From the NCBI GenBank assembly GCA_030141605.1, contig JAQGDQ010000684.1, forward strand, positions 49,147 through 113,146: a stretch of 64,000 bases of DNA, read 5' to 3'. This DNA is from Tubiluchus corallicola. Taxonomy: Eukaryota; Animalia; Priapulida. How positions within the stretch are numbered: the first letter of the stretch is position 1; each line of letters begins with the position of its first letter. A program made the translations under genes and the position numbers. The notes beneath the pieces were generated by a model. The model had not been told where the DNA came from. It searched no databases and worked only from the letters and a program-made list of their open reading frames with translations. Positions 8,748-54,027 of this stretch are shown here, piece after piece.

Positions 8748-8940
8748 AAAAATCATGTCGAGAGTAATTCGCCGAGGCATTCACACTAGACAGAAAATCA
8801 TGTCGAGAGTAACTCACCGAGGCGTTCACACTAGACAGAAAATCGTGTCGAGAGTAACTCGCCGAGGCGTTCACACTAGACAGAAAATCGTGTCGAGAGT
8901 AACTCGCCGAGGCGTTCACACTAGACAGAAAATCGACTCG
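8748..8940. repeat. 45-bp tandem repeat, ~4 copies
   Basis: Unit GAAAATCGTGTCGAGAGTAACTCGCCGAGGCGTTCACACTAGACA. Confidence 0.9.
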
Positions 8941-9718
8941 CAGCGACTGTTGGAGAGTTTGCAATAGTTTACCGACAGTAACTCGCAAAGTAGTTCACAC
9001 TTGCGAGTTTGATGCCAGAGAGAAAATGTGTTAGTCTGAACATGCCTTAAGCTTAGAAGCATGTGTTCTTAAGTCAGTCAGCACACTCCATTGTAATAAG
9101 CAATGATATGGTGTGAAAAAAATAATTTAACTGCAATATGAGCCTAGTCAATCTAGAACATTAACAAATAATCCAATGGCAACAGACTATGTGTGCTCCA
9201 GTCAACAGAAAATACATTATAATGAATTCACAAGGAACAATCTAACACTAAGCCTTTTCATAGTTCCAGTGATTAATCATGATCGTGAAAAGGTCAAAGA
9301 TTGAGTGTACAAAGCAACACATCTGTGACTCTTGACAACGCCTCGCAGCCCTAGCTGTTGTAATAGTAACAGTTTTAACAGCTGGCTGGAACGTTACCTA
9401 GGTCATTGTTTCTTGTTCCCAAGCAAGATCCTGCTAGTCAACACACAGAATAATGCACAATTAAGTAAAGTTCACGTAAAATAAGGAAGCTACTGAACGG
9501 ATGGAACAGAGAGCTTTGCTTTACACACGTAACGTGATGGTTGTTGTAAAGACTCGTTGCTGTGGTACACTTAACCTTTGACCTGCAGCAAATGCACATG
9601 CGCACAGCAAATCTTTGAAAAGACTTATTGCTAAGCCAAGTACATTGTCGTGTGAAATAATTACTTATGTACATAGTTTATATTAATACGTAAGACTTAT
9701 GTTTGAAATGAATGGCTT

Positions 9719-9892
9719 CTAACCCGGATCGTCCTTGACTATTTTCTCGTGTACAGTTTTCCGCGGTGTGTGCACAGCGGGTTCTAATTTAACTTCAGTT
9801 CTAGTCAAGGTCACCTTCTCGGCACTTGTAACCAGATTTGCTGGCAATTGTGCTGCAGACGCAGTCGTTATGCCCTGCTCCGAAATTTGTTT
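9719..9892 (-). CDS. NFRKB: NFRKB terminal coding exon (KQISEQG...DDPG*)
   Basis: TTTATTTCAG acceptor, phase 0, TAG stop. Confidence 0.7.
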   Translation of the reverse strand, partial: KQISEQGITTASAAQLPANLVTSAEKVTLTRTEVKLEPAVHTPRKTVHEKIVKDDPG

Positions 9893-12535: not shown

Positions 12536-12616
<81 letters not shown>

Positions 12617-12685
12617 AATAATAATAATAACAATAATAACAACAACAACAATAATAATAATAACAACAACAACAACAACAATAAT

Positions 12686-12718
<33 letters not shown>

Positions 12719-15560
12719 AATAATAATATAATAATCTTTATTAAAAGTCAGTCTTTGGATTAACAATCAACGTAAGCTCATGGAGCTTTTAGTCGACTGT
12801 AAATAACAATTGTACAACTACGTAACAGAGATTACTATTGCTGTACATCAGTACATTAGTACACGCAAATTACTACGCATCAGGCAGGGCAACAGTAGGT
12901 GTACGATTGGAACACGACATTATCACAACTTACGATTGGAACACGACATTATGACAACTTACGTTTGGAACACGACATTATGACAACTTACGATTGGAAC
13001 ACGACATTATAACAACTTACGATTGGAACACGACATTATAACAACTTACGATTGGAACACGACATTATAACAACTTACGATTGGAACACGACATTATGAC
13101 AACTTACGATTGAACACGACTTATACAACTTACGATTGGAAACGACATTATACAACTACGATTGGAACACGACATTATACAACTTACGATTGGAACACGA
13201 CATTATGACAACTTACGATTGGAACACGACATTATGACAACTTACGATTGGAACACGACATTATGACAACTTACGATTGGAACACGACATTATAACAACT
13301 TACGATTGGAACACGACATTATAACAACTTACGATTGGAACACGACATTATAATAACTTACGATTGGAACACGACATTATGACAACTTACGAATGGAACA
13401 CGACATTATGACAACTTACGATTGCAACACGACATTATAACAACTTACGTTTTGCTGTTAAAATTTGCTTGGGATCTGCCACTGTAGCTACCTTCATGCC
13501 CTGAATGGCTCTAAGATTAGCAGGAGTCAACGCAAAACCTACGAAATGAAATGAGAGAAAATATAGGAATACAGACATTTACTTCATGGCTTAACAAAAC
13601 CTTTCACAATTTAAAAATTTTTAACCCTTAAAAATATTGTCCAACACAAATGCAAGAAATCAACACAAAAACATGCAAACAAAGTTTAATCTTTAGTGAC
13701 ACGGTGCAGCGAGTAAGTTGCAGTTCTGGCTTGTCAGGTCTTGATTTTATTGCCTAAGCTTGCATGTTACTAACTATAGACACCAACTATGATGACATAA
13801 ACTGGTTCTAGATCTTGGTTGTAGAACTGGCATTCTTAGCATAGGAACTGCTATTTTAGGGGGAAGGTGAGAGTCTCTTAGTCAACACTCAAAAATGTTC
13901 ACCCCCTCCCATATGTCTTCTTTGCATTGAATGGTACACTATTAGTTCCAGTGATAGGTAAGTTCCATTAAAAATGAACTTGTTCAATTTTTGTATAGAA
14001 GTAAAGTGAACTTTATTCAAGTTCAATTTCATCCCGGCCACAATGAACATTACTCAAGTTCAAGTCCACGATCGGGTTTTGACAAAGTTCAAGTTGCAAT
14101 GAATTAACTGCGTAGGTCTATACATCTAGTTATTTAACTAGCATTGTGGAATTCGCTTTACTAATTTGACTTATTTTCGCTAGTTTTGGCACATGGATTT
14201 GGCTAAATTTGGTTCTGTTTGGCTTAATCTTACCAGGAATTTGGCTTACGAATGACTCCGTCACCGATCGCCCTGCCCAAAGATCTTGCATATTGAGCAC
14301 TAGCATAAATTCACAAGTAACAGAAGTCATTTGTTTTTTGGGTTTTTCTCATTTTAGTTTAGTAGGTGAATTTGAACCTTGAAAATTCAAGTTATTTTTG
14401 TAATAATTGTTAACGTTTCCAAGTTCACAAAAAGTCAAGTTCTTGCAACTCCTTTTTTTGTTTGCGTACTCTGTAAATCAGGGGTGTGCAAATTGCGGCC
14501 CACGGGCCACTTGCGGCCCGCCGAGAGAATCTGTGCGGCCCACAATTTGTCAACCTAATGAAAGTGCGGCCCGGGCGATTAATTGAGTGTATTCAGCTGA
14601 AGTCCGTGCCACGATCCCAATGATAGTGCGGGTAGTTTTTTCTACTAGATCGGATGCCATTAACCCTTACAAGACGGTTGTAGCTTAATGTCACTGTACT
14701 ACACAGACTGTGTGATACACATTACTAATACGCATTGTAATGAAATTACCACTATCTGTCCTGAAAGTAGAAATATATGGTTTGTAATATAAATTTTAAT
14801 AACTTCTAAAATAGTTTCTTGAGTGTAGTAGTAATGATGTACACAGGTCGGATGCAAAAAATCGTTATTAGGCCTTTCTGTAGTTGGCTCCTTGATCAAA
14901 CTGCCTGTGGCCCGCAGGAATTGCGGGAAAGTTTAATGTGGCCCGGCTAGTCAGATAATTTGCACACCCTTGCTGTAAATGAACAGCTCACAGGATAACA
15001 CATTTATGGCTTGAGTTGAAAAGTTCATTAGCATTATTAACTACAATAATATAAGCAAGAAGACGTAAAATTAACCTGCAGGTTTCCCTCCGGTCACTAC
15101 GAATGTTGGATTAGTCTGTCCTGCAAGCACAGTTTGTGGACTAGTGCCCAGCACGAATGTCTGCTGTCCGGGGAGACCAGCTCGAGTTCCTAGAGTGATC
15201 AACTTTGTCTGTGTCGTTCCGCTCTGACCGGGTATTATGAACGGAGCTGCGCCAGCTTGAGAACCTATTCAGAAATAAAAGAATTAAGAATAGAAACCAC
15301 TGCGTCGCCTTCAGACTGATGAGCACAGCAAAGAAATATTAGAAGGAAAGGGAAATATCAAATCAGGTAACTTATGAGGAACAGGGATTGTTGAATCTCT
15401 TCACTGAAGCGCAATTCCAGTAGGGGAAATGTGATATTTACGCTCCCCGCACAAGAGCACGCACACACGCACGCACGTTTTGCTGTATAAAACTAGTCCA
15501 GAATCAAAGCATCAGGTTATCCACTGCCCGCACAGGAATGATAATGATAATGTGATAATG

Positions 15561-15598
<38 letters not shown>

Positions 15599-18500
15599 GA
15601 TACATGAACATTCTACATAGTCTTTGCTCACTGCTTCTGAAATGACGGTAATATATATAAGCTAACTGTTAACAAATACGTGTTTGCGGTTACCATAGAA
15701 ACCAAATTTTCGTAAAATTTAGAATACACATTCTTGTAAAGTTGTTACCTAGGAAGACAGTCTGGCCATGATTTATCTTCATTGCAGGCCCAACGACAGG
15801 CGTTGTCTGTGCCAGTTTCACACCAGATGGCAGGGCTGAAACAACCTGAAAATAACAGTTAAACATTCACTTAGATATACGGCAAAATTTCCTAAGCGAT
15901 AGTATCGAGATTCACTTCATTTCATACTCAGAATTGTAGGAGTTCTACATTGCATCGCGTGACTAAGACAACACAATCATTAACAAGTCACGAGGAATTA
16001 TATTATAATAACTATAGTAGCAGGTACAATCACAGAATCAAATAGCATAATTATTATCAATAGTAAAATACCACTATACTAAAACACAGCGGAAGAATTA
16101 GCCTCGCTAGCCCACAGGTGTAAATGTTCAAGGTAGACCTGTCTTACACAGCTTAAATACAGAAAACTAGAACACTATTAATGTAAAAGGTCATTCAGAA
16201 GCAAATAAGTACAGTAAGATTAGAGCGAAATTTAAGCTATTTCAATGTTATAACAAGCGTAAAAAAGGAGGGAATGAGATGAAAAAATTATGAAAGAGAG
16301 ATGAGCAAGAAGACAAACAATGTAATATTCACAAGTCAAGTTAATCAAACGCCAAGTAAATATAGGAAGCACTTTGCGACAAAAGGAAAGCATACCTTTA
16401 CACCACCCTCGGGTAAAGAAAGATTTTGTTGAGGTTGACTAATCAGTTTAGATGTACCTGAAATAACAAGAAGTAACAAAAATTTAAAAACCACAAAGTA
16501 ATTGCAGGTGACGACCAACGAATGATTACATGTAACATGAAATAAACAATATGATATTGCGAAATTCCATGTACAATTCCAACCTGTTGTCATTTCTGAC
16601 GAAACTGTGGAACTTGACTGTCGTACTAGTCAGATGATGACCGCAAAATTCAGTCCATAGTTACAGCGGCGTTTGCGTTTTGTTATCAGATGTGAGAAGG
16701 TGTCATTTCCGAAGAAACTGTGGAACTTGACAGTCGTACTAGTCAGATGATGACCGCAAAATTCAGTCCATAGTTACAGCGGCGTTTGCGTTTTGTTATC
16801 AGATGTGAGAAGGTGTCATTTCCGAAGAAACTGTGGAACTTGACAGTCGTACTAGTCAGATGATGACAGCAAAATTCAGTCCATAGTTACAGCAGCGTTT
16901 GCGTTTGGTTATCAGATGTGAGAAGGTGTCATTTCTGAAGAAACTGTGGAACTTGACAGTCGTACTAGTCAGATGATGACAGCAAAATTCAGTCCATAGT
17001 TACAGCAGCGTTTGCGTTTGGTTATCAGATGTGAGAAGGTGTCATTTCTGAAGAAACTGTGGAACTTGACTGTCGTACTAGTCAGATGATGACAGCAAAA
17101 TTCAGTCCTTCGTTACAGCAGCGTTTGCGTTTGGTTATCAGGTGTGAGAAGGTGTCATTTCTGAAGAAACTGTGGAACTTGACTGTCGTACTAGTCAGAT
17201 GATGACCGCAAAATTCAGTCCATAGTTACAGCGGCGTTTGCATTTGGTTATCAGATGTGACATTTCGCTGTGTAGCATTGTTTACAAAACCAGCATTGCA
17301 GAAACGGCGTCGTTGTTTATCCAAGGAAGTCGTTGTTCGAAAGTTTCCAGAACAAAACCAAACAAAATATTTTGGGGAAATGCATTTTCGGGGCTCTATT
17401 TCCGTTAGGAAGGAAGCCGCGAAATTTAATAAAATTAGTGTCATATTTCAAGTAATGGTTAGCTATTCTGATTAAATGAAATTGACCAGCTTTATTTTAT
17501 TTCAAGTTATGCTGTAACTCGTTTTTATTTTAAATTTGATTTTTAATTAAAAAAACAGCCTAAAAATTTGAAAAATCTACAAAGGATACGACACAAAATT
17601 ACAAATGTTTCATCTACAATTGCAGTCAATATTATCGACCAAATTGCAAGCAAAAGATTTCACCGATGAGGGAGTTAACACGAGGTTTGATTATCGTTTT
17701 GAAAAGTGAAGATTTTGCGAAGATTTCCCACCTTGTATTTCAGCGCTGGAACTAGAGACAACCTGAAGTGGGGAACTCGTAACGATCCTAGCTATAATTG
17801 GTTTGTTGACACCTCCAGGTGAAGGCGGGGCGGATGATTTTCCACCGGCCGACGGTGGCCGCGACGTCACCACCACCTGCTGATTACCGACTGTCACCAC
17901 TTTAGGAGATGCTATAAATAAATATGTAAAATATGTAAAAGTAAATGCATGGTGTGTATATTTCAGGTGAGCAATTCATTAGCAAAAAACAAGTTACTAC
18001 TTATCATCATTACAAGTCAAAGAGAATTTTTAAAAGGGAAGACAAGGAGATTTTAAAGTATATCTCAAAAAACTGCCCGTACAAAGTTATATTACTTAGC
18101 ATTATGTTTACCTGTTTGAAAGACTTACGTAATTGGAAAAGAAAATTCTTAATAATTTGAAATATTCGCAGGTAAAACTGCATTGCATCAGCATCCCAGC
18201 ATGCACCACTGGCACACCAAAAAAAACATTGTTCTGACTATCAATATAAAGTAATTTAAACTTTTGCTTAGCTAGCGAAAAATGTGCAAAAAATGCCCAG
18301 ATTATTTTTTCGAACATTACGCAATGTTATCTAAACTTGTTTCAAAGAAGTTACCATTAAAATTGGTTGTTGCCTAACAGTCATTACAAGAGTTTTAATT
18401 TACAAATTAGCAAAGGCCACGCAAAAAATTTTGCGTATACACAGACTTATAATCAATAATGCGCGAGCATCCTACCTAGTGTTGGTTTATTTACCTGACA

Positions 18501-21500
18501 CAAAGTCAGCAGCAGCAGCTTTTACTGAATTAAAGTCATAAGCAGAGTGTAATGGATGACGTCAAAACAATGGCTTTGCGTCAGCAGTTTTATAAGCGAA
18601 AATTGCCGAAAATAGAACATCTAATTAACTCGTCGGCACTCCTCTTGGTGTTCTAAAGCATGGCCGACATCAACGTGTAGCCCTGTTCTTCCTGTTTCTA
18701 AAGAGCCGTATATCTCCTTTCAAGAGTCTCACCAGGCGCCGCTAGAACGTTTTTTCTACTTGCCGTTTGACCAAAAGTTTGAAAAAATCGCGACTTGGGT
18801 ACGGGAAAACGCCGTGGCCCTCTCGCGAATTGCAAGTATGCCTACTACACCCACCGCCGAACGGGCTATCTATCCATGGCCAGCACCACCCACGGCTCGT
18901 TCCCGTTCTCTAGAAATAAGAGGTATAAGTTTTGCAAAAAACGGCCGAAAAATGGCCATTTTTGGAGGTTTTTCGCCCCCCGTTCCTCTCGATGGGCCCG
19001 ATTCAAATAATAAACCCCCAACGGCACGACACTAGATCGAGACCTTTCGTTTGGTATATAGATCGACGCAAATGGTGCTGCCGTCGGAGCTGTAGCCTCA
19101 ATATCAAGCCCATACCAGTGAAATTAATATATACGATTTAAACAGCGCTACTACTAATACAAGCTCTATATGCATTAAGTATGAAACTGATACAAACTTC
19201 AAAAAGGATTTTTTAAACTTTATTTACGAAGAACGTTTTCTTGACCTTTAACTAACCTAATTTATAACATACCAGGAGTAGGCGTACGTGGACTCATAAC
19301 TGGACTAGGTGGATTCTCGTGTTTAAAAATCATCTGAGTGGCTTGAGATGAAGACTTAGCAGGGATATACTGTATTCTTGGCTTTCCAGATATAATCTGT
19401 GCTGCAGGTTTCCCACCGGGAGCAGCCTTTACTTGAACAGCAGTTGGTGGTCCAGGCATATACTGCGTCACGTGTTTGGTTGTTATGTACTGAGACGCAG
19501 GTTTTCCACTGGAAATAATCTGCGTTGGTTTTCCCGGAAGAATCTGCGTCGCCTGCGTAACGTGGACGACCTGAGCAGCCGGCTTTCCGGTCAGTAAGTG
19601 CGTAGCCGGCTTGCCGGAGACGACGTTGCGTTTGACCCCGGAGTAAACCGTCGGCTGTTTACCGGGATACACAGCCTGCGGCTGCTTGCCGGCCAGAGCT
19701 TGTGCGGCCGCCGCACGCGAAAGCAGTTGAGTGGCTGGATTTCCAGTTATGATCTGAGAATACTGCACTCCCGATGAACTCGGCGACCCGCTAATGATGT
19801 GAGGTCCATTTTTGCCGGGTATTTGATTAATGATAACAGGTCGCGTTCCGACTTGCTGTAATCCTGGAGCCACTTGCTGAAGTCCGGTGACTATCACCGT
19901 TCCTGGTGAAGATCCGGCGACACCTACAATCAAACCATAATGCTAAATTGAAACAGCTGTGCAGTTTTTGATCTTCTACAATACAGTCAACCCTCGTTAA
20001 ACCGGAACTAATTGGGGGATAGGTGGTCCAGTTTAGCCGATTGTACAATTTATCCGATATGCCTATATATGGTCTATATTATACAGGAATAATCACCTTA
20101 ATAAGGCCTATATACATTGCACTATATACTATACTGTATATTACTTTAAAATAAATTAGTGTGTACGATCACGCAAGTGCACACTAGACCAAGCTACTCA
20201 ATAGGCTAAGTTGGAGTGCATGAAAAGGGCGAAGTTGGAGTGCCCGAAAAGGGCGAAGTTGGAGTGCCTGAAAAGGGCGTGCCTTTCTTAATTTTATCCA
20301 ATTAAATCACTTATTAACGAATAGCACGACTGGATAGCCGATATTCTCCTGAGTGGAACAGTACGTAATTTGTAATATTTAGTTATGTCTGTGTTCATAC
20401 AGTAGTAGAAAAGTCATAGGTCTTATAAGATCTATTCTGAATGGTCCTGAAAGAGTCAACAGCAAAATAACAGCTTGAAAGTGGTAAGTGTTTCAAAATT
20501 ACAGACTGTATTTAGCGGAAAACTCTCACAAAAACTGACAAGAATCTGTGTTAATTTTTTTGCTATAATTTTTAGATACTTAAATACCTGGAGAAGCCGG
20601 TTTTCCAGTGGCGGTGTTAACAGCTGGCTGGTATATTTTAAGTCTCGGTCTTGGCGCAGTTTCAGGTTGTGTCAACGTGAGGGGAAGAGCAGATTCAGTG
20701 CTGATTTTCGCTGCGGTCGAAGTTCCCGATGCAGCCTGTTCGACGACAGCTTGGGAAAGCTTAAACATTAGAAATAAACCCGTTCATTTTTTGCACTAGA
20801 AACAGAATAGAAAAACTATTTCACAACGCACACCACAGATGGTTTGAAGAAACCAAAAAACTTGAAATTTAGTTTTAAGATTTTATTTTGAAATCATAAA
20901 CAGTGAAGTAGTGTCCTGTTGAAAAGCAGAAAACCAAGTGACCAAAAACTACAGGTGAAATCATTTAGGTGTGAAAACAGGTTTAGAGATTATGCATTCA
21001 TAAAGACTGTAGAAGCCAATGAAAATTTAAACAGTAAAGAGAAAGATATAACAATTTTACCAAGAACACCTGAAGGTGGCAGCACTATCCAAAACTCAGA
21101 AAAGTATGATGACAATACACAACATAAATTTAAATTTAGAGTAATTCTGTCCAACAAATGCCACCAAAAACAACATCATTCGTATTATGTGTGGTGCTAC
21201 TTGTATGTAGTAATCTTTAAGCGATAAGAAACGGGAATTTTAAAGTATGTATACTACTTTCTGAACTTTCCATACAAAGCTTTGCTACTTTGCATTAAAC
21301 TTATCTGTTTGAAAGACTTACGTAATTGGAAAAGAAAATTCTTAGTAATGTTTGCTACAGCTGATAAAAACATCACTGGATCATATCCCAGTGTGCACCA
21401 CTGACTTCCCAGAAAATGTATTATTAAAGGAAAAGCCAACGTTTTAGAGAAGTTGAACTTTAATACTTGCGAAAAATGTTAGAAAGTTTCAGGAATAAAA

Positions 21501-24500
21501 TTGTAATAAGCATCGCCTGTAATTAAAAGTGAATTTAAACTTGCAATCACTTCATGTTCGGGCGCGCTCATTTTGAATGAAAAACCGTGTCGTTTCGGTT
21601 ACAGTGGAACACAAACATACAGGTGCGTGAGCAAACTTTTTTACAGCTGCAGTACAAACATTCCAAAATTTTAAACGTAAGATTATTAAAAATTCTCACA
21701 GAATTGCACGCTTGTCTGAAACTCATTCCAGGACGAAATTTTTTAGCATACGTAAAAAATGTGCTTGTCTTGTCCTTTAACAATGGTGCTACTCAACACA
21801 CTTTAATTAACAACAAATTACACTCACCTGAGTAGCTGCTAATCGCGGCTGTCCAATTGGAGGTCTCAGGCTAGGTGAGTTTGGACTTTGCTGACCATTG
21901 GCTAACACTGAAGTCGCAGGTTTACCACCTATGGTAAGCCCGGCTGTCTTTCCAGTCAGCGCCATTTGCAACAACTGCAAGTAAACAAGTTGTCTCAATA
22001 GTATTGTAAGTGAACAAATAATTGTCTTTTTACACAAATCTAACGTTCATTTTAACGTAAATGCGTTAAATTAATAATCGACAATTTTTTTTACTGAATG
22101 TCCATCTTTTTCTGCACTGACAGCAGTAATAGCACAATGATTTATCCTGGAAGTTATAACTCTGCACAATTGATTCTATATTTTTATACAAAGAGATATA
22201 CACGTGGCTACACTGATGTACGTGATGTAAACAAAGTGACGGCCTGCCAACTAGCGGTCAGCTTGTGAAATAATGTACTGGGTCCGTAAGAATTTTCTCA
22301 ATGAATATACGCGATTTACAAAAATGGCACTACTGGTCTTGCAAGAACTCGGAATTCTCATCCCTGCAACTAACTGCCTCAGTACACAACCGGTAGGTTA
22401 AATTCATACCTGCTTTTGCAGAGCGGGACTAAGTGCTCTAGGACTCGGAGGAGCCTGCGGTTGAATGAACAAATCATCAGACTGGGATGCAGCTGCCGTC
22501 ATTTGCTAGAAAAACGATTCGACAACAATGACGATGATAGTGACAGCAATATAAAGAAACGAGTTAAAAATAGAACATAAAATAGTTGAAAAAATTTGTC
22601 AAAATCTAGTGAAAATAATAAAAGTAATTTGTTATTGCAGTTTTCTACAGAATGTAACAGAACTTCTATTCAAATTTCTTTCATTTCCACAAGCAAGAAT
22701 GTCTGTGTTTGCATTCCAGCAGAGAAATAAATTCATTTGGGTTTTCTAACTTAATTTGCTTATGTGAAGTAAAAAACTCTTCTCTTAAACTACGACTCCA
22801 CGTGAGCTTAATGCATCATCCGTAATGCGTGATGCATGATCCGTAATGCGTGATGCACGATCCGTAATGCGTGACGCACGATCCGTAATGCGTGACGCAC
22901 GATCCGTAATGCGTGACGCACGATCCGTAATGCGTGACGCACGATCCGTAATGCGTGATGCACGATCCGTAATGCGTGATGCACGATCCGTAATGCGTGA
23001 TGCATGATGATCAATCAATCAATCAATCAATTTATTTCACTCCAGCAATACATATACAATACATCAACATTCAATATTATTGAGACAAAAAGAAACAGTA
23101 TAGGTAAAAAAACGTTGATGAAGTCAAATTAACCAAATAAAAGAGTTGCTGTATGACACCTTGAAAGCTTGGCTTGTTAAGGTGGCACAAATGAGTGAAA
23201 GAAAGAATGGTTAGGGTTAGTAGACATGATGGAATGGAAGAAACAGTAAGATTAGGGATAGGAAGAAGGAAGAGGAGAAGAAACGACCAGACAATAGTAT
23301 AAACTATTGTATACCCACCACGCATCATTCATTATTTACCACGCATTACGCACCATGCATTACGCATCATGCATCACGCATTACGCATCCATGCATCATT
23401 CATTATGTACCATGCATTACGCACCACGCATTACGCATCATGCATTACGCACCACGCATTACGCACCATGCATTATGAACACATGGAGTCGCACTTTTAC
23501 TGCACTTTACTTTACTGCAACAACAATACATGCACGAAAAATCATTTGTTCTAAAATTAACAAATTGTAAATTTAAAACAATAACTTCAATTATACTGGC
23601 TATTTTAATTTTGAACACTATGGGTTAAGGAAAAATTGGTTAGTTTATCTAATTCATATTCAGAATGCGTAGCTTTGACCATCAAAAAAGTCCAACGTTC
23701 AATAAAATGATTTTCAGAAAACTTACTTGTTGAAGCACTTCTTTAATAGTCTTGGGTGAAGGCTTCATGTTACTCACGGCTGTTTTTTGTGACAATGTGA
23801 CAGAAATGTCACTCATGACTTCATGCGCTTCAGCTTGTAGTGATGTTGGTAATGGGGCAGTAACTGCAGGACTCAACGAACTTGTCTCACTTTTTGTTTT
23901 CTAACAAAACAGAAAATTTTTCCAGTCAGACACAGAAAACTTTAAAAAAACATAAAAAATTGCAAGCAGTCGAATACATTATTACTATGACACGTTTTGT
24001 ATGACACACTTAGAGATTTAACATGAATCTCATATGGACTGAATGAATCTCCATGCAAGCCATATTGTTCTCTATTGTGCAGAAATATGTAACACCTAAT
24101 TAATAACAATCTTGGCAAAGCAACTTCTGAACGGGCTTGCCCCATTCACGCAGGTGTTAAACGGGTTAGCGTCACATTGCGTTAGACAACCAAGATATTC
24201 ATTAGGGTAGATTCACGCTAGTAACTTTGCTCCGAGTCACTTCAAATGCTGTGAAACGGCCAAAGTGCACTAAATAACTACAGACGTTAAAACTGGTATG
24301 TAGACGTATGTGGGATTCGTGGGAAACCGATAAATGACAAAGCGCATAGGAAAACCATTTTACGGCGCAGAGAAGCTAGTTTTAGTTTCACAAAGGAAAA
24401 CCATTTTAGCTCGTTTTAGTCTCTGCTCATTTGCAAAACACTCAAGCTAACAAACTTGTTAAAACAATTACCATACTGTAGCGCCAATTTTTGGTAATAT

Positions 24501-30500: not shown

Positions 30501-33487
30501 TAATACCTTATGACAATTTAACATGGGGCAGTCAGCTCACTCGAATGCCTACAGGGTGTCTCAAAAAGAACAACAATGATTCAACAAACTAAAATTGACA
30601 TTAACTTCAATGTGATGTTGACTAGGAAGAGCCAAATCTAGGAAATGGAACTTAAACGTTGCTTTTGTCACCAATTACTGAAAAGCGTGGTCTTATTAAA
30701 CGGGACACTGGTTTTATTAACCAAATTATCTTAACAATAGTTTCTAGGCGGGTAATTGCAAACCGTGCAGAAACAGTTCTAAAATCTAGCTGATCTTATG
30801 GGCGTATGATGATGATGATGATGATACAGTAGTTGCCGCATATTATAAAATTACAGATAATAAAAATAATAATATCCCGTCACATCTATTGTAGACATAG
30901 GGCAAACAATATATACTGTACTTATATTTATATGTACAACTAATATATAACACGTACAGAAAAAAAATCAAGCACGGAAATCTTCAATTTTCGAACACAA
31001 ATTCGATAATTAATTGCAGCAAAATAAAAGGTTTTCAATACAGGTAATGTACCTATAGTGTCACCAGCCAGGAATTTCAGCGCTGATGTTACCAGCTCGA
31101 CCCAATTTGGATGCAAGTGTGACCATTCGCTGAACGAACTGGCGCCCGAATCTTGCCACAACTTTGTCCTTTCTTCAAGCTTACCGGTGCCGACTTTGCG
31201 GTCGTGGCTGTCGATGATCAGGTCACGCAACAATGCAAAGAAACAATTGTACCCCGAGGTCAGGTATTTTGGCGTAATCGGCCTGTAAAAGTAGAAAACG
31301 CAAAATTTAAAAACAAAACAGAGTTGTCGAGAAATGCGCCAACATGTCGTATCTTGAGACACAGCGCTTATTCGTATTTACACGGGTTGCTTGGATCACC
31401 CAGCAAACAGATTTATGAATGAACCATACAACCATTAAAAATTTTATAGAGAAGTACTACTTGGCATTCTGCCTAACTGCCCATTTAATGAACTAATTAT
31501 TTCATAGTAATAGTAATGGTAATGGGTGATGGTGATGGTGATGATGGTAATAGTGATGGTGATGGTGATCATGGTAATAGTAATGGTGATAATCTTCTCG
31601 ATTATCAAATTCAAAAATAAATAAAAATTACAAAGTTCCTGACATGGGTAACTGTCTGCCTGTACAGTTTGCTGCACAAATACGTTTGAAATTAATATCA
31701 GGATTGCTAATGCAGATTCTGAAATGAACACAGGATGACTTTTCATATTCTACCCCATTTTCAAGTCCGATAAAAATTATACATTTTAACACGATTAATA
31801 CTGCAAAAGCGCTTCTGATAATTAAATAATAGATTAAAAACTTAATTTGTGGTGGGCGAGCCTAACTATTGATGACATCACAAACTAGCATAATTTTCAA
31901 AAGGAAAAATATTCCACGAGCGTGTTACAAGTGTTTGAGAAATAGAAAATTGAAGTACAGAGCTACTGTAAGAGATTCAGTGTGTTCTAATAATAAAATA
32001 CTACAAGTTTTAAGATAAAAATTCAAGTTTCAAATATAGATTTTTAAGTAAACTGAGAAAGTAAAACAAACAAATAAGAATTTGAAGACTACTTACCGTG
32101 TAAGGTCTTCCTCAAAATTAAATTTGCCCGGTAAGGTTGCATCGTTGTTTGCGACATCGTCTCCCAAACCTCTCGAGTCTCCGACATCCACTTTTAATTT
32201 CTTTTTCTTTTTCTTCTTTAGTTCTTTCTTAACTTCAACATGCTCCGCCTCTATTTCTTCCTGTACAAAAAGTCAAGCGTGTTTAAACGCCAATAGGCAT
32301 CAAACGAACAAAGTCTTCAGTTCATTGAGTAACTCGCCCATGATGGAATGACATTCTAGGTTACTTAATGACAGGAACTGCAAATGAAGAAGTTAACTTT
32401 ACCTGACACAAAATTGATAATGAGTTAATTTGTAAAAACTGTTAACCCTTTCATACCCGTTGTATCCCGTGGGATACGAGAATATTTTCTGCTTTTAAAA
32501 TTAATAAAATTTTAAAACTGACAGTTATTTGATCTGTTAATAGTTATTTTGATTTAAGCCAATAACAATAGACTAAAAATGGTGATAAAATGTCAAACTA
32601 GAAAATCTACATAGCATAAAAAACTGCGCAAGGTACAGTACTTTAGAGACGACTTTGTACAGATCAGCATAGCATGCATACTAAATGTCTTAAATACTTT
32701 AAAAAATTATCAGCAGTTACAAAATGAAGCACATTTTATGTTTCCATTAAATCCCAATGTATCCCGTGGGATACAGGCTATATTTAGCACGCGGTCACAG
32801 GTAGAAAAAATAATTATTATATGTAAATAAGATGGACATACTGAACAAATGTACCGAGCCAAAAAATTTGGGACTGAAAGGGTTAATTACTTTCCAAACA
32901 TCAGACCTGTACGAACTACATTTCCATTTGAAAACAATGCGAGAAGTTTGACAACTCATAAGCATCTGTCGTTTAGACTATAAGATACTTGGTTTAAAAT
33001 GCAGACACATTTTAGAAGAACAACGTGCATAAGGGTGCGAACACAGCGAAAAATTGTTAAATTGTAATTATTATCAGCGTTTGTTGTTAGTGGTGATTCA
33101 CGCTGATTGATGCACATAATGAAGCTTTGAAGCTTCAGCTAATTTCTCTGCTAGACTGAAACAGCTATTATAGTACCTATTTACAAAAAATAAAAAAACA
33201 GTGTACATTATGCGGAATTTGGCTACCAGCTATACTTTTCCACAGTACATAAGAAATGACCTTTACTGACCTATACTGCAAAAATTACACTATCATCATC
33301 ATCATCATCATCATCATCATCTCCGGAGTCACATGTTCACTGACATGACCCTGCCTATCACTTCAGACCCGCAACCTCCTATATCTCTGTATTTTTGATA
33401 TCTAATGATGTGTTGATAAGATCTTTTTGGATGAAATTGATGTGAGTCAGATGTAATTACGCTAATCATCATCATCATCATCATCAT

Positions 33488-33524
<37 letters not shown>

Positions 33525-36500
33525 TAATGTGTTGATAAGATCTGTTTGGATGAAATTGATGTGAGTCAGATGTAATTACACTAATAATCATCATCATCAT
33601 CATCATCATACGCCCGTCACGTCTATTGTAGACACTGGACAGGCAGAATTCTAAAATAAAAGAAATCTGCCTTCAGACAGATAAACGCAGCAGTAATTGA
33701 GCAAAAAAACTACGCCAGTGGCTTGTCAGCACCATTTCCACTAAATTACACTAAACTCTTTACCCATATTCTTGCAACGTGGGAAATCTTTTCACCTTAC
33801 TTGTTTGTTCAGTAATTAGACAAGCTCTGTCACATGATTTCCCTCATTACCTATAATGATATATGGAGTCTACATGCTTTCTTAGACACAAGTCTGAATT
33901 TCTTTACTTAAGACAGCACATGCCGTCAAATGGCTTCAGAGTATTAAAAGGAAAAGAAACACAAAAAAGACAGAAACACAAAGGAAGAATATTTTCTCGA
34001 AAACCGTTGCCTTCAAGTCGGAAGGTACCTTAATTTCTTGTATCATGTGAGTAAATCCTGTCGGTGAAAGAGATCCGGTATTCTGCTTCTTCGATGGATG
34101 AGTTCTTGCAATCACATCTTTTAAATCAATATTCTTTATGTCTAGATCAGCCGCATCCTACAAACATTCAAACAATGTCAGTTCTGTTAGATGAAATGAA
34201 GGCCATACTCATGCAAATTTCATGGTTTTTAAACAACCAACATTCATTATTGTAAACAGGTGTTAGGAGAATCACAGTAAGAAAATTCCAAATGCTATGA
34301 AGAGCCTTAAATATTACAAAGTAATACAAAGTGAGCCTGAAAGTGAGCCTGGTGGATCATGTAAATGTGCCATTTGTAAATTCAGCAAACTTCCCAATTT
34401 TGTTAAGTCGTAGTTAAATGCTGAATGTGTTGGCAGGAAAATTTTTTATTGACCTAGATAGCTTTTGTGTAAATTTTAGCAAATGTTACTGCCTAAAATT
34501 TTACTGTCTCAAATTTTTACTGTCTTCATGTAGGTGGTATCCAAAAGATTTTAAGAAGTACATATTATTACCATGTTATCGCTCATATACATTATGTTTG
34601 ATATCGGTTGACGAGCTTTAAACTCATGTTCTGCAAATATGTACTGTTTTATATCATACCAATGAAAATAAATATTATCTTATCTTATCTTATCTAGGAA
34701 CCCATACATTGGATGGAGGGTAAAAAGTTTGGAAATGGCGGATTTGTCATGTTACCAATAAAAATTTTCGTGTTTTGCCTAAAGAATTTCTCAAACATGG
34801 CATTATCAGAACCTGCAAGAAAAACAGTTTCTCTACAGGGGAAATAGAGACTGAATCAGGAAATGCTAGATCTCATTCTGAAAAAGATTTAGTACTGATA
34901 GAGAGTAATTCTTACGATAAATCGGTTTCAATTGAAATTCAATCTTCTCTGTTACAATTAGTATAATTCGTCGTATTTGAACATTGTAAGCAGACCTCAC
35001 AGTCCCAGGGATGCCAGCAAGAAATTACAGGGGCGGGGGCAGCACTTATGAGAAGGGGACATTTTGTTTACCCATATTTCTTTTAAAGTGAATAAAAAAT
35101 GAATGACAGATACACGTTTTTAACTAGAATTCAATTTTGATAATGCAAGCTAAAAATCGCAGTTTGACAAATTAAGTACAAACAATTCTTCCATAAAAAA
35201 AGCAAAGTTCTACTTCCGCACTACCCCTCCCCTGGGAAAGGGCGGGCGTGTGGGCACTGCCCCCGTGGCTCTGTCGACCCCTGAAACAGTAATCATTATA
35301 ATTATAATTATTATCAAAATTTTTCGATAAATTCAAATGGCATGCAAGACCAATATTCCACAAAATCGAAATGAATTGATTATTCAACTTACGTCGTTTT
35401 CCAATCGTCTTTTCTTGTGCTTCATTAGCATAAGTCGGTATCTTTCCTCTGTCATCTTCGGTGCCGGCGAGTACTCATTGGAGACGGCGCCACGAGGAGA
35501 GAACGTCGACATGACCTCCATCTCGTCTGAATTGTCTCCATCTTGTCTACACGCAGCTGCACGAAATTTGCCGCGAGGAACCGGGAAACCGGGAAACAAT
35601 TCGTCGTCATCAGATGTATCTTCCTCTCCGCATTCGTCCCGGACTTCTTTGAGAATTCTGTGGATCATTTTTATTGTAAATTAAAAGTCAAACTCTATTG
35701 TGTTACACTGTAGGTAAATTTCAAACTGTATAACAGTAAATAATTCAGTAGATATACACCGTACAAACCACTTAATTTTAAACTGTACTATTTTTCGGGC
35801 GTGTATTACCAATAGCTAACTAGGCCTTACCCAGGGGTGCCAAATTTTACGGGCCCAGTGCAAAAGAATTCGTATTCTCCTTGGAAAATGCATACTCAGT
35901 TATATAAGGTACCTATTTTATAACAGCACACAAGCAATAACTGAATCCGCTTTTACATAAGCACCATATAACAAATAAGTATAAGGCACTACACCACAAA
36001 CAGTTGCAGATAGTTTAGATATAAGAGCATATAAGATATTTATATATCAATACACATAATCAACAATGTGCTAGTGTTACTAATACACCACAAATAATTG
36101 TGCACTATACCAATACACATAATCAACAATGTGCTAGTGTTACTAACACACCACAAATAATTGTGCACCATATTAATACACATAATTATCGTGTTACTAA
36201 TACACCACAAATAATTGTGCACCATAGCAATACACATAATTAACAATGTACTCGGGTTACTAATACACCACAAATAATTGTGCACCATATCAATACACAT
36301 AATTATCATATTACTAATACGCCACAAATAATTGTGCACCATAGCAATACACATAATTAACAATGTACTCGGGTTACTAATACACCACAAATAATTGTGC
36401 ACCATATCAATACACATAATTATCGTATTACTAATACGCCACAAATAATTATGCACCATACCAATACACATAATTAACAATGTACTCGGGTTACTAATAC

Positions 36501-39500
36501 ACCACAAATAATTGTGTACCATACCAATACCCATAATTAACAATGTACTCGTATTACTAATACACCACAAATAATTGTGCACAATACCAATACCCATAAT
36601 TAACAATGTACTCGTATTACTAATACGCCACAAATAGTTGTGTAAAAATTTTATAAATAAACAAACATAAATACGTAATGGAAATGGACGGGGTAGATTT
36701 ATCAGCCTAGGGTTTCATAAAGTCTTGATATGCCCCTGCTAGTCATTCAACTCTATTCTGCGTGCAGTAAATTTCGCTCTGCTATATATAGTTTAGTGCA
36801 ACTCTCATAAAAACGTTAACACTTGACAAAAATGAATGAGATGGATAGTCAGTGAATCACGTATGGTTCAAATGTGCAACTTACTTGTGATATTGCTGAT
36901 AAGTTTGATACTCTAAACTTTGTTCTTTTGGATTATGTTTGTACGTACGTTCCACAACGACGGGCATGTCGGGCGGAGTTTTATACGCCACTTCCAAGTG
37001 TATCTATAGAAGAAAGTTTCATGAAAAAAAAATCCACAACAATCCATTACTTAAAGGCCAAGAAAAGGGGTACCCGAAGCAGGTTTAAGAAAAATCGCCT
37101 TAAAGAATTACAGTCTAGCCTCGTTCTCTCGCCTCTCGTTATGCCGCCAAACTCGTCTTTCAAAATAGAAAGTCCAGGACGGATTTCCTGCTTTGATATT
37201 TACCTCTTTAAGTCGCCACCCTCGCCACGTCATGCTAGGATGAGTGCTTATGTAAACTATATTCGTTATGTCGCCAATTCAATACATATACAGCGTGTCG
37301 ATCAATATAACCACGGTAAGTAGACAATGCTGCTTGTAGACAATGCTGCTGTACTTGGTTAATGCGCAGAGAAACTAAAGCGTCACCGATATACTTACTC
37401 TATAACACCATTTCTGATTTAATGTTGATTGGTATCATAATGCAAAATATATTTTATATGTACATAGAGGAACATTATGTTAATCAACTATTATGTATAT
37501 ACATATAGACTAACTTCGTTATATTCCCGTTATCTCGCCATACTCGCCTCTCGCCAAGTGGCGAGATAACGAGGCTAGACTGTATATTACTTTATAGCAA
37601 TTTTATGTGTACATCGTACTCGCATTGAAATGATTTTTGGTTTGTTTTCATTTTAAATTTCCTGCGACACTGTTCCGAAGTCGCCATTACACGTCATACA
37701 TGCACAACATAAATCAGGGGAAGAAAAGTAAATTTTAAACTAAGTTTAAACTATGTCCCATAAACTTTCCATGCAAAGTTATATTACTTAGCATTTCGCT
37801 TACCTGCTTGAAAGATTTATGTAACTAGAAAAGAAAATTATTAATTATTTAAATGCTTATTTATGGGAAACATGAAAAGCTCACCGTACTTTAAGGGTTA
37901 GGATATGAAAAATCATCCCGTTTTCCTTTAATTATGATCCCCACAAAGCCAACTTTTTAAATTTGTAAACTAAACTAGTAACATTAACTTGTCTTGCACA
38001 TTTTTCACCTGTCTTGCAACAAGAATCTCTTCGAGTAACTTAGAATAGTAACATACACATTTCTCACCTGTCTTGCAACAAGAATCTCTTTGAGTAATTT
38101 GGAATAGTGACATACACATTTCTCACCTGTCTTGCAACAAGAATCTCTTTGAGTAATTTGGAATAGTGACATACACATTTCTCACCTGTCTTGCAACAAG
38201 AATCTCTTTGAGTAATTTGGAATAGTACCATACACATTTCTCACCAGTCTTGCAACAAGAATCTCTTTGAGTAACTTAGAATAGTACCATACACATTTCT
38301 CACCTGTCTTGCAACAAGAATCTCTTTGAGTAACTTAGAATAGTACCATACACATTTCTCACCTGTCTTGCAACAAGAATCTCTTTGAGTAATTTGGAAT
38401 AGTGACATACACATTTCTCACCTGTCTTGCAACAAGAATCTCTTTGAGTAATTTGCAATAGTACCATACACATTTCTCACCTGTCTTGCAACAAGAATCT
38501 CTTTGAGTAACTTAGAATAGTACCATACACATTTCTCACCTGTCTTGCAACAAGAATCTCTTTGAGTAACTTAGAATAGTACCATACACATTTCTCACCT
38601 GTCTTGCAACAAGAATCTCTTTGAGTAATTTGGAATAGTACCATACACATTTCTCACCTGTCTTGCAACAAGAATCCTTTGAGTAATTTGGAATAGTGAT
38701 ATACACATTTCTCACCTGTCTTGCAACAAGAATCTCTTTGAGTAATTTGGAATAGTGACATACACATTTCTCACCTGTCTTGCAACAAGAATCTCTTTGA
38801 GTAACTTAGAATAGTACCATACACATTTCTCACCTGTCTTGCAACAAGAATCTCTTTGAGTAACTTAGAATAGTACCATACACATTTCTCACCTGTCTTG
38901 CAACAAGAATCCTTTGAGTAACTTGGAATAGTGACATACACATTTCTCACCTGTCTTGCAACAAGAATCTCTTTGAGTAATTTGGAATAGTACCATACAC
39001 ATTTCTCACCTGTCTTGCAACAAGAATCCTTTGAGTAATTTGGAATAGTGACATACACATTTCTCACCTGTCTTGCAACAAGAATCTCTTTGAGTAACTT
39101 AGAATAGTACCATACACATTTCTCACCTGTCTTGCAACAAGAATCTCTTTGAGTAACTTAGAATAGTACCATACACATTTCTCACCTGTCTTGCAACAAG
39201 AATCTCTTTGAGTAACTTAGAATAGTACCATACACATTTCTCACCTGTCTTGCAACAAGAATCTCTTTGAGTAACTTAGAATAGTACCATACACATTTCT
39301 CACCTGTCTTGCAACAAGAATCTCTTTGAGTAACTTAGAATAGTACCATACACATTTCTCACCTGTCTCGCAACAAGAATCTCTTTGAGTAACTTAGAAT
39401 AGTAACATACACATTTCTCACCTGTCTTGCAACAAGAATCTCTTTGAGTAACTTAGAATAGTACCATACACATTTCTCACCTGTCTTGCAACAAGAATCT

Positions 39501-42500
39501 CTTTCAGTAACTTAGAATAGTACCATACACATTTCTCACCTGTCTTGCAACAAGAATCTCTTTGAGTAACTTAGAATAGTACCATACACATTTCTCACCT
39601 GTCTTGCAACAAGAATCTCTTTGAGTAACTTAGAATAGTGACATACACATTTCGCACCAGTCTTGCAACAAGAATCTCTTTGAGTAATTTGGAATAGTGA
39701 CATACACATTTCTCACCTGTCTTGCAACAAGAATCTCTTTGAGTAATTTGGAATAGTACCATACACATTTCTCACCTGTCTTGCAACAAGAATCTTTTGA
39801 GTAATTTGGAATAGTGACATACACATTTCTCACCTGTCTTGCAACAAGAATCTCTTTGAGTAATTTGGAATAGTACCATACACATTTCTCACCTGTCTTG
39901 CAACAAGAATCCTTTGAGTAATTTGGAATAGTGACATACACATTTCTCACCTGTCTTGCAACAAGAATCTCTTTGAGTAATTTGGAATAGTGACATACAC
40001 ATTTCTCACCTGTCTTGAAAACAAGAATCTCTTTGAGTAATTTGGAATAGTGACATACACATTTCTCACCTGTCTTGCAACAAGAATCTCTTTGAGTAAC
40101 TTGGAATAGTACCATACACATTTCTCACCTGTCTTGCAACAAGAATCTCTTCGAGTAACTTAGAATAGTAACATACACATTTCTCACCTGTCTTGCAACA
40201 AGAATCTCTTTGAGTAACTAAGAATAGTAACATACACATTTCTCACCTGTCTTGCAACAAGAATCTCTTTGAGTAACTTGGAATAGTGCCGCTGCCGTTG
40301 ATACCTGTACTCCTTTCTCTTGGCACGTTCGCACATTCTCGTGTACTTTGCCACTTTCGGAGAAAAATGACCACCTGCGTAGAATTTTTCATACAAATAT
40401 AGGTTATACAGATACTCGCGGGAAACTGTGTCTTACTAACAAAACAGTTTATCTCGCTATTACTACCAAATCACATTGCACCGCCAAGCTAAAATTGAGA
40501 TGCTTACTTTAAAAAGCAAAATACGAGACTCGCATATACAAATACAAAACAATAAAGTAGTTCAATTACTGGCAATAATTAGGTCTGAACCACAAAATAC
40601 AACCAGCCAAAAATATTTAAACTTACTACATATCAAACGTATGATACGTCAACTACATTATGTACAATTTAGTTCGCAGTAAGGTAAGATCATTTCAGAA
40701 AATAAAGAATATTTAGTAAGGCCAGAATTTCGTTACATTTTGTCAGAATCTGGCTGACTCTCACCGCAACTTTTTACGAGAGTCTGGAGAATCAAGGTCT
40801 AAATTAGTTCAAGTACGATGAATTATAATCACTGAAACAGCAAATTTTGAATTTCACTCAAACTGTTTCAGTATAAGAATTAATTACTATCAGTACTGAC
40901 ATCTTTTTCAAAATGAGACGTAATGTTTCCTGATTCGGTCTCCAAGCCATTTAGAATTTTGTTGATTCTTCTCTTAGTCAGTGAATCGCAATCATCATTT
41001 ATTTCATCAAGAAGTGTAGCACAAGCGCAAACGACTACAGCCACATTGAAAACACTGGTTCTTGTCTGATCATGCTGCAGTTCCATCAATGTGATCAATA
41101 ACTGACTCTCTTGGCTCACACTCCATTGTCTTCTGAGACAGAAGGATGCCAACCAACCATATAGCACAAGCATTTTAAACAAGAATTGCTTTACATTTAT
41201 GGGAAACATGAAAGGCTTTGCTGATAACTTGACAAATCAACCATTTCCAAACTTAAGACACCGTCTGCCTGGCGTTCGCATTCTTGTCGGTTTGGCAACG
41301 AGTGTACATGCCAGTCTGAATGAAAAGCGCAGCTCGCAAGCTGCAATATGGCAACGTACATGCTAGCATAAGCCAAAAAACGAAACAATCAAATTAGTGC
41401 CAATATTTCTTTATTTTTTAGCATTCAGGCAAAACCTGCGCGAATCTAATTAGATGCATCGCAATGGGCATTCGCGCGAATATTTACGCGAGTGGATTCC
41501 GGGATTTGTATCGAAATTCTGACCCTGTTTAGATGCCCTTCTCTGTTTACGTAACAGAACAAGCCAGTAGTGAGTACCTTTCAACTTCCTTTGAAAAACT
41601 TGAACAGGCGATGAAAATTTGAATTCTTCCTGATCAAACAGTCGCCTTGAAAAAAAATTAAATGAGAAGCTAAGATGTTCGCTTGTTTCTGGGTTTATTA
41701 CTATTTTACACTGCAAAAACTGTTGTCAGTCTGATGCACTCATCATCACTAGTGTACACTACGCACATTAAAGTTTGAAAAACACGTTTGTGTGTTTGCA
41801 CGGCAAAAATGTCCAGAAGTCGGCAGCTAAGCTTATTTAGTTATTGATATAGTGAATCTCTATTTCACGAGGAACATTTTCGTACCAAGCTCATTGCTCT
41901 AAGTCATTTCGAATCTGAGATGATCTACACTGAAGTTGGCCTGCAGGCTACACACTGAAAACATAATCTTGAAAAGGTGGCTGTTAAAGTTAGCCATTGT
42001 TTTTTGTCATGCTTCTGAAAAATGCTCAGCCAGCATACGAACATGTGGTTGTTATGGACTTTGTAACAGCACAATGAAGTTCGAATTAAGTCCTGTAGAG
42101 GGCTCTTCGAAACGAAAATCTGGCATTAGGAACAGAAAAAAACTGCAAGCAAAATTACCACTTCCACAAGCTACTATTGGAGCTTGAAAATACGAATTTT
42201 TGACAAATGCAATATTAGTTTTAGTCAGACAAATGGGTGAGGAGTTACGAAGTTAAATTTTGAGTGTTTTCTAAACAATTTTCTGTCATTTTTATGTTAC
42301 AATATAGATGTCCACTTAGTACTTGCCAGAAAAAAATTGATTTTTGACCCAATTCCATTGCACTTTGAAGCAGTTTTAACCACACAAACTTGAGGGCAGT
42401 TTTGGTTTGCAAGCACACATTTAATGGTTAAAATGTTTTAATGCATCTTTCTTTGCAAAAAATATCAAGTTGTACTATATATCTGCTATAGTCAACAACA

Positions 42501-47079: not shown

Positions 47080-47220
47080 CTTGCGCTTCGAATACACTCG
47101 AAAAATATGGCGAATGTCGCGTATGCGCCTTGCTACACAAATATTTCAAACGCGATCCTTCTTCATTGCAGCTAAACGTGGGAACCATAATTATTGTTTG
47201 CGCCCTCTAGCCGGAAATAA
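47080..47220 (-). promoter_or_regulatory. Putative NFRKB promoter and non-coding first exon
   Basis: CpG-richer patch; CGCCATATTT (YY1-like) then AAG|GTAAAA donor at 47080; CCGGAAAT ETS-like site at ~47211. Confidence 0.5.
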
Positions 47221-48318: not shown

Positions 48319-48640
48319 ACTAGCACTATATGCTTGTTGCTAAGAGATACACACGTTGCAAAATTTTTCATTCTGAGCATTGATCACCTTGCATCACATG
48401 GATATAATCAGAATTAGACATAATATACTGCTACCTTGAGGCGAATTTCTTTCTACTGGTTGTCCATTTATTACTGGTTTTATCGTTTTGAGATCCATTG
48501 GTTATGATCAGTTACTTGTTGCCTTGAAACGAACACAAACGATTGATTTGTCATTGATGGCCAGAACACAAAAACAGATGGCAAAGGTTCTTTCCTTTGC
48601 CTACGAGACAATAGTCTTTTAGTATCAAATATTTGCAACC

Positions 48641-53995: not shown

Positions 53996-54027
<32 letters not shown>

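What the first reader, a model, noticed from the sequence alone, without database searches (positions are those of the whole stretch)
12902..40288. Recurrent splice-junction minisatellites: NFRKB tandemly amplifies its own exon-intron boundaries
Seen: three unrelated arrays (29 bp x ~19, 37 bp x ~12, 59 bp x ~39), and possibly a fourth (113 bp x 6), each contain a genuine NFRKB splice site in the unit. Each leaves the exon intact and extends only into the intron. Junctions are a small fraction of this 37 kb gene, so this looks enriched. Inference: either a mutational process targets junctions (for example co-transcriptional R-loop or spliceosome-pause-linked slippage), or the decoy arrays tune splicing and NMD, or both. 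Tandem duplication of splice-site-containing sequence is also a proposed route to intron gain. I know of no named system of this kind.
Basis: partly seen in the sequence, partly recalled or inferred. Interest (0 to 1): 0.85.

Follow-up and report, generated by a model that had tools for sequence, protein, structure and literature searches.

The report
Three "mirage" minisatellites in invertebrate NFRKB
Three short DNA repeats in an invertebrate NFRKB gene have copied one of the gene's own splice sites 12 to 39 times into the neighbouring intron; this is a known kind of repeat ("mirages" in lancelets, "exon stuttering" in chicken, the human F7 repeat), likely made by ordinary local duplication and likely tolerated because only the copy next to the exon is predicted to give a full protein.

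Summary
Three of the four arrays are confirmed at splice sites of a 28-coding-exon NFRKB model: 59 bp x 39 (donor), 29 bp x 19 (donor; one exon base in the unit) and 37 bp x 12.5 (acceptor). The 113-bp array lies 131 nt from the nearest modelled junction. The 59-bp array is real (short-read depth fits the assembly) and recent: a relative at about 91-93% identity has one copy, and likely lacks the 37-bp array too. All 79 decoy sites tested predict premature stops. "No named system" is wrong: these are mirages / exon stuttering / F7-type VNTRs, and this scan logged the pattern 44 times in at least 16 genomes. "Extends only into the intron" follows from duplication geometry plus selection. Junction excess is nominal (3 of 15, P 0.12-0.17; 3 of 6 high-copy arrays, P 0.007), post hoc, and untested genome-wide (no genome held). 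Splice-site use is untested: no RNA covered these junctions. Residual interest: the gene's three highest-copy arrays are the junction ones, and the 37-bp array stranded the strongest-scoring acceptor 431 nt upstream of a weak functional one.

The parts
9718..47150 (-). NFRKB (INO80G) gene model: 5' UTR exon (donor 47080; start approximate), 28 coding exons 45600-9718, two candidate microexons; about 1455 aa predicted
   Evidence: open frame, length; identity; not RNA-verified except one intron (28818-29665, inferred)
37997..40288 (-). 59-bp donor-spanning minisatellite, 39 copies; unit = last 42 exon bases + first 17 intron bases; 38 decoy donors, 35 identical in the 9-mer to the real one
   Evidence: read depth; single copy in relative X5
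40247..40374 (-). Exon whose 3' end seeds the 59-bp array (end of the UCH37-binding DEUBAD region; domain name recalled)
   Evidence: match to PDB 4UF5/4WLP
29890..30353 (-). 37-bp acceptor-spanning minisatellite, 12.5 copies; unit = 4 intron + 33 exon bases; 24 upstream AG decoys, 2 in-frame AGs in the last unit (29922, 29901)
   Evidence: reads; linker length in homologues
30353..30373 (-). Stranded pyrimidine tract with AG at the far end of the 37-bp array; likely the ancestral tract; highest acceptor score in the region (11.8 vs -0.4 for the functional site); its use predicts a premature stop
   Evidence: ancestry inferred
29666..29922 (-). Exon whose 5' end seeds the 37-bp array (second half of the NFRKB winged-helix domain)
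   Evidence: X5 alignment ends at 29926
12902..13449 (-). 29-bp minisatellite starting at a donor, 19 copies; unit = 1 exon base + 28 intron bases; 17 decoy donors, 16 scoring below the real one
   Evidence: not checked in reads
13449..13538 (-). Exon whose donor seeds the 29-bp array
   Evidence: frame only
16588..17260 (-). 113-bp x 6 intronic minisatellite, 131 nt from acceptor 16457; ends inside an unproven 12-nt microexon candidate (16595-16584)

Best explanation
Three minisatellites contain NFRKB splice sites, and they likely arose as ordinary local tandem duplications in a repeat-prone gene that happened to include a junction and likely persist because splicing is predicted to use only the copy next to the exon. 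Shown: unit anatomy; no copy of the units elsewhere in the window; the 59-bp array's copy number; a single copy in a close relative; a premature stop for every decoy in the gene model. Inferred: seeding by slippage or repair at short shared ends (4 bases for the 29- and 59-bp units, a 20-base templated copy for the 37-bp unit, read by eye), growth by slippage or unequal exchange, first-donor choice as in human F7, last-acceptor choice by exon definition, and removal of leaked products by nonsense-mediated decay. The one-sided look needs no directional mutation: the copy that is spliced defines which copy counts as the exon.
For: The gene is rich in tandem repeats regardless of junctions: 15 intronic arrays of period 10 or more, in 12 of 30 introns, 5713 of 37432 bases; 12 of the 15 touch no junction. 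Over all 15 the excess is not significant (3 observed, 1.26-1.45 expected, P 0.12-0.17). The three units have no match elsewhere in the window. X5, a relative, aligns over 40241-40376 and then leaves with a 126-nt loose end that by eye resembles the intron behind the array; its contig over the other exon stops at 29926 with 96 unaligned letters (side inferred). All 38 + 17 + 24 decoys predict stops at least 197 nt before the last junction. Published cases report normal splicing: F7 uses only the first donor (PMC1557585); lancelet mirages on both donor and acceptor sides do not disturb the mRNA (PMC3087553, PMC3902484).
Against: The three highest-copy arrays of the 15 are exactly the junction ones (1 in 455 by rank; 3 of 6 arrays with 9 or more copies, 0.47 expected, P 0.007). 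Dropping five transposon-borne or microsatellite-like arrays and masking dispersed repeats leaves 3 of 10 (P 0.068) and 3 of 4 (P 0.005). The null ignores selection against junction duplications, which would lower the expectation. The functional 37-bp acceptor scores poorly (rank 28 of 30) while an unproductive site scores 11.8, so clean splicing there is not assured. Human 6-16 and CBS arrays do use one or two decoys (as summarised in PMC1557585).
Confidence: 0.68

Rival explanations
1. Junction-biased origin or growth: tandem duplications arise, expand or survive preferentially at exon edges (for example through recombination or repair concentrated at exons, transcription-coupled slippage, or because deletions that would erase an array are constrained next to an exon). 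The arrays would still be neutral by-products.
For: Top three arrays by copy number are all at junctions; nominal P 0.05 to 0.0005 for the higher-copy subsets. Junction seeds fold no better than shuffles (z +1.3, +1.6, -1.25) while 2 of 5 other seeds tested do (z -2.5, -2.3), a weak hint of a different route. A fourth case is possible if the 12-nt microexon is real. Mirages recur in four lancelet genes.
Against: One gene, chosen for the pattern, with thresholds set after seeing the data; not significant over all arrays (P 0.11-0.19). A 39-bp x 17 array at 7505-8164, outside the coding span, shows that high copy number needs no known junction. In chicken, exon stuttering sits where intronic repeats are dense in general (190 of 236 introns on dot chromosomes). 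No G-clusters for R-loop seeding.
Confidence: 0.25
2. The decoy arrays are selected regulators that tune NFRKB output by diverting transcripts into nonsense-mediated decay.
For: All 79 decoys predict premature stops, and 35 of 38 donors in the 59-bp array equal the real 9-mer, so leakage would lower output; the 37-bp array offers a stronger unproductive acceptor.
Against: Absent from a relative at about 91-93% exon identity; frameshifts and stops are the default for units that are not multiples of three; identical units are expected from recent expansion and homogenisation.
Confidence: 0.05
3. The arrays are assembly artefacts.
For: The 29-bp array has three short, error-like units in its middle and was not checked in reads; copy number of the 37-bp array could not be fixed from depth.
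Against: Depth fits assembly counts for the 59-bp array (36 vs 34, 32 vs 28, 1.9 vs 1.7); its far-end junction is a loose end in X1; a second sample X4 has an 89-nt contig across the unit-to-unit joint; units carry ordered variants.
Confidence: 0.02

Closest known systems
Lancelet 'mirage' minisatellites (Adh3, globins BflGb6 and BflGb9, troponin C, PGBD5; PMC3087553 and PMC3902484, passages read; the original Adh3 paper not seen)
   Same: [quoted passage not shown]
   Different: Another animal group; up to 39 copies here against 3-6 reported for BflGb6; harmless splicing and allele or somatic length variation were shown there and are untested here.
Human F7 intron 7 37-bp VNTR, with 6-16, CBS intron 13, lamin B2 and PDGF intron 4 minisatellites (PMC1557585, abstract, introduction and discussion read)
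   Same: First unit spans the donor, the donor is repeated into the intron; the 29-bp array (1 exon base) resembles F7 (4 exon bases), the 59-bp array carries more exon.
   Different: Those are donor-side, one array per gene; here three arrays share one gene and one is acceptor-side with a displaced pyrimidine tract.
Chicken 'exon stuttering' on dot chromosomes (bioRxiv 10.1101/2025.09.16.676548; passages and section 6 part 1 read)
   Same: A lateral part of an exon with its donor or acceptor is copied locally into the adjacent intron, 1-44 copies, recent, coding exon intact, amid purely intronic arrays.
   Different: GC-rich avian microchromosomes and imperfect tandems there; about 36% GC and 95-99% matching units here.
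Rogers-type intron gain by tandem duplication of AG/GT sequence (as described in PMC3087553 and PMC2812944, passages read)
   Same: The 59-bp unit has AG directly followed by GT, so each unit reads GT...AG.
   Different: No new intron was made: the donor position is shared with the relative; the array only lengthens an existing intron.

Membership tests
Mirage minisatellites | Tandem unit spans an exon-intron boundary | tested here: met
   59-bp and 37-bp units clearly; 29-bp unit by one exon base; 113-bp not met under the model
Mirage minisatellites | Minisatellite-size unit (10-160 bp in the described cases) | tested here: met
   29, 37 and 59 bp
Mirage minisatellites | Most units keep AG/GT splice signals | tested here: met
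   38 decoy donors in the 59-bp array, 17 in the 29-bp array, 11 further copies of the functional acceptor context in the 37-bp array
Mirage minisatellites | Normal splicing is kept | tested here: inconclusive
   No RNA holder of this genotype was listed; the one RNA-like run stops at 29860 and has nothing on 40180-40560
Mirage minisatellites | Length instability between alleles or individuals | tested here: inconclusive
   Single copy in relative X5; X4 has at least two units of the 59-bp repeat but its depth cannot be scaled
Exon stuttering | Local origin: exon edge copied only into the adjacent intron, exon left intact | tested here: met
   Units match nowhere else in the window; frame open; rest of genome not searchable
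Exon stuttering | GC-rich dot-chromosome setting | tested here: not met
   GC 0.33-0.43 in 2-kb bins; setting of the chicken cases rather than part of the structure
Rogers-type intron gain | A new intron formed between duplicated exonic copies | tested here: not met
   X5 has the same donor (alignment runs 6 bases into the intron) and likely the same acceptor
Recursive splice sites (recalled) | Intronic AG/GT used as acceptor then donor | not testable with these tools
   Motif present in 36 of 38 full units of the 59-bp array; units are 58-60 nt while the shortest modelled intron is 435 nt; no nascent RNA

The most novel reading that the evidence does not exclude
In this animal, exon edges are preferred seeds or growth sites for minisatellites, so that a housekeeping gene gains three large splice-site arrays within a short divergence time; and the 37-bp array, which left the strong pyrimidine tract 431 nt upstream of a weak acceptor, is a natural acceptor-side counterpart of the F7 experiment that forces last-copy choice or a copy-number-dependent loss of NFRKB message.
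Probability: 0.22. Interest if true: 0.6.

Novelty: new member of a known kind. Interest (0 to 1): 0.24.

Why it matters
As it stands, a clean new instance of a described repeat type, with its recent origin shown against a relative. It would matter more if a genome-wide test showed a real junction bias, because both papers that name the phenomenon say its mechanism is unknown (PMC3087553, 10.1101/2025.09.16.676548). The acceptor array is a ready test of how a cell chooses among 12 equal acceptors plus one stronger stranded site. Practically, such arrays can mislead gene annotation and read mapping.

Tried and rejected
No whole genome is held, so no genome-wide test was possible. No RNA holder listed. 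X6, guessed RNA from a diverged relative, likely joins 29665 to the exon at 28817 (inferred from depth bins and 32 unaligned letters; the joint row was not displayed) but does not reach any array junction. X4 has no contig over 29725-29960; X1 also has a hole at 29700-29877, so this shows nothing. I tried to derive zygosity of the 37-bp array from bin depths; no simple model fitted both bins. The word-indexed protein search found nothing (0 of 19 candidates); the HMMER search did. A screen for further short duplications at the 60 junctions found none outside the known arrays. Hairpin seeding of junction arrays: not supported. R-loop G-clusters: one GGG run in three units. The acceptor at 29901 as the main site: disfavoured, since it gives a 4-residue linker, 29922 gives 11, and 72 of 150 homologues that had both motifs give 8 (51), 9 (17), 12 (3) or 5 (1); minor use is not excluded. 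113-bp array as a fourth case: unproven. Rfam gave only one weak tRNA-like hit. Paper searches for a genome-wide test of junction enrichment or an R-loop link found none (open-licence library only, listings seen), which does not show that none exists. Supplements of the papers were not read; the alignments of mirages and the chicken hit list lie there.
Full report
Observation. Tandem Repeats Finder confirms the four arrays at the stated sizes. I read the window from 1 to 55999 and built a minus-strand gene model by hand. Its 28 GT-AG coding exons join into one frame with a single stop at the end. Three single exons match human NFRKB structures (3U21 at E 3e-10 and 3e-4; 4UF5 at 8e-7), and three of four exons scanned hit NFRKB Pfam domains. 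The four best homologues looked up come from two bivalves, a nemertean and an octopus at 48-57% identity; the organism itself is not identified. For the tests I added a 5' UTR exon and two candidate microexons, giving 30 introns and 60 junctions.

Anatomy. The 59-bp unit is the last 42 bases of exon 40374-40247 plus 17 intron bases; it has 38 decoy donors, 35 with the same 9-mer as the real one. The 29-bp unit begins at donor 13449 with one exon base; 16 of its 17 decoys score below the real site. The 37-bp unit is 4 intron bases plus the first 33 bases of exon 29922-29666. The 113-bp array is 130.5 nt from the nearest modelled junction. It ends inside a possible 12-nt microexon, but 35 pseudo-exon pairs of similar score exist in these introns, so the fourth case is unproven. 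By eye, the 29- and 59-bp arrays are bounded by 4-base shared ends and the 37-bp array by a 20-base partial copy, which fits slippage or templated repair; this is inference.

Are they real, and how old? Run X1, possibly the assembly's own sample, has unit contigs at depth 5800 and 5100 against 159.5 in the flank (8 of 23 X1 records displayed). That is 36 and 32 times, where the assembly predicts 33.8 and 27.9. The tool warns that contig depth is not a copy number, but the fit on three records is close. The 37-bp unit has raised depth too (939 and 461 against 128-176). X4, a second near-identical sample, has an 89-nt contig across the 59-bp unit joint. X5, same species label but about 91-93% identical in exons, aligns over 40241-40376 and leaves with a 126-nt loose end whose displayed 30 letters resemble, by eye, the intron behind the array. 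Its contig over the other exon stops at 29926, the four bases before the acceptor, with 96 unaligned letters that I infer lie on the intron side. So the 59-bp array, and likely the 37-bp array, arose after that split, at splice sites that already existed. No intron was gained.

What the decoys would do. In the model all 38, 17 and 24 decoy sites give a stop at least 197 nt before the last junction; only the real donors and two AGs in the last 37-bp unit (29922, 1455 aa; 29901, 1448 aa) give full protein. Homologue linker lengths (72 of 150 proteins had both motifs) and the X5 alignment favour 29922. With a crude matrix from the gene's own 30 sites, that acceptor ranks 28 of 30 (-0.4), while a pyrimidine-rich AG at the far end of the array scores 11.8. 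That tract is likely the ancestral one, displaced by the array. This is the only place where correct splicing is not the obvious expectation. No RNA covered any of the three junctions, so site use is untested.

Enrichment. I collapsed each array to one unit, placed it at random in the gene and rejected wholly exonic placements. Of 15 intronic arrays with period 10 or more, 3 touch a junction against 1.26-1.45 expected (P 0.12-0.17); including microsatellites 3 of 20 (P 0.19); with 3 or more copies 3 of 10 (P 0.046); with 9 or more 3 of 6 (P 0.007); with 12 or more 3 of 3 (P 0.0006). After dropping five arrays I judged transposon-borne or microsatellite-like and masking dispersed repeats: 3 of 10 (P 0.068) to 3 of 4 (P 0.005). 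But the gene was picked for this pattern, the thresholds were chosen afterwards, and a 17-copy array lies outside the coding span with no known junction. No genome is held. The claim that arrays extend only into the intron carries no weight: a duplication across a junction is symmetric, and the spliced copy defines the exon. Junction seeds are not hairpin-prone and lack G-clusters.

Comparison with what is known. PMC1557585 (abstract, introduction, discussion) describes the F7 VNTR whose first unit spans the donor, lists 6-16, CBS, lamin B2 and PDGF, and shows by mutation that the most upstream donor is chosen. Earlier scan notes (44 findings in at least 16 genomes, unchecked) pointed me to 'mirages' and 'exon stuttering', which I then read: PMC3087553 (passages) defines mirages on both boundaries, reports normal splicing, calls the mechanism unclear and proposes intron gain; PMC3902484 (passage) adds PGBD5 and troponin C; 10.1101/2025.09.16.676548 (passages and section 6 part 1) reports 236 chicken introns with 1-44 copies. 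PMC2812944 (passages) covers repeats at human exon-intron boundaries. My searches found no genome-wide test of junction bias, within an open-licence library.

Verdict. Three real, at least partly recent mirage-type minisatellites in one gene. Most likely neutral local duplications filtered by selection (0.68); junction-biased origin or growth remains open (0.25); a selected regulatory role is unlikely (0.05); artefact 0.02. New member of a known kind; interest 0.24.

Noticed in passing
window 22790-23500: The 21-bp and 14/71-bp arrays are inverted relatives (70-85% complementary) around a 256-bp piece that recurs at 49371-49625 (94.5%): likely a miniature transposon with tandem repeats in its arms and a nested insert.
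   Followed up: partly
window 28909-29189 and 18828-19099: Very high-copy dispersed element: summed contig depth about 1.1-1.8 million against about 145 for single-copy DNA in X1; two copies in NFRKB introns, 86% alike, inverted.
   Followed up: partly
window 14511-14977 and 26353-26828: Two inverted copies (94%) of a 470-bp dispersed element in NFRKB introns; three copies of another at 18052, 21226 and 37721.
   Followed up: no
window 18495-18524 and 14234-14299 (-): Candidate frame-preserving microexons of 30 and 66 nt in the low-complexity C-terminal half of NFRKB, with good splice scores (scored with themselves in the matrix); no RNA support.
   Followed up: partly
window 9180-9720 (-): Possible alternative 3' exons of NFRKB behind the modelled stop at 9718-9720; seen by eye and 11 translations.
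   Followed up: no
window 1623-2969 (+): Intronless 448-aa DOMON plus cytochrome b561 gene, ferric-chelate-reductase-like (name recalled).
   Followed up: partly
window 48600-64000 (+): Tandem cluster of about 2.8-kb repeats, each with a short first exon and a C-type lectin exon (Lectin_C); at least one copy has an early stop near 54195.
   Followed up: partly
window 7505-8164 and 8749-8935: 39-bp x 17 and 45-bp x 4 arrays behind the NFRKB stop; the 45-bp unit has acceptor-like sites scoring 4.6-5.3 on the minus strand but no exon was found behind them.
   Followed up: partly
window 29525-29699: X1 shows two alleles differing by 7 letters and 8 gap positions in 175 bases: a highly heterozygous individual. 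X5 and X6 carry the same species label yet differ by about 7-12% in exons, suggesting cryptic species or mislabelling.
   Followed up: no
window 24624-24691 (-): Weak tRNA-like match (35 bits) inside an intron, likely a tRNA-derived repeat head; a similar stretch is seen by eye near 44470-44540.
   Followed up: no
window 42990-43620 (+): 121-bp x 2 repeat inside what looks by eye like the 3' end of a retrotransposon reverse-transcriptase remnant (recalled resemblance, not searched).
   Followed up: no
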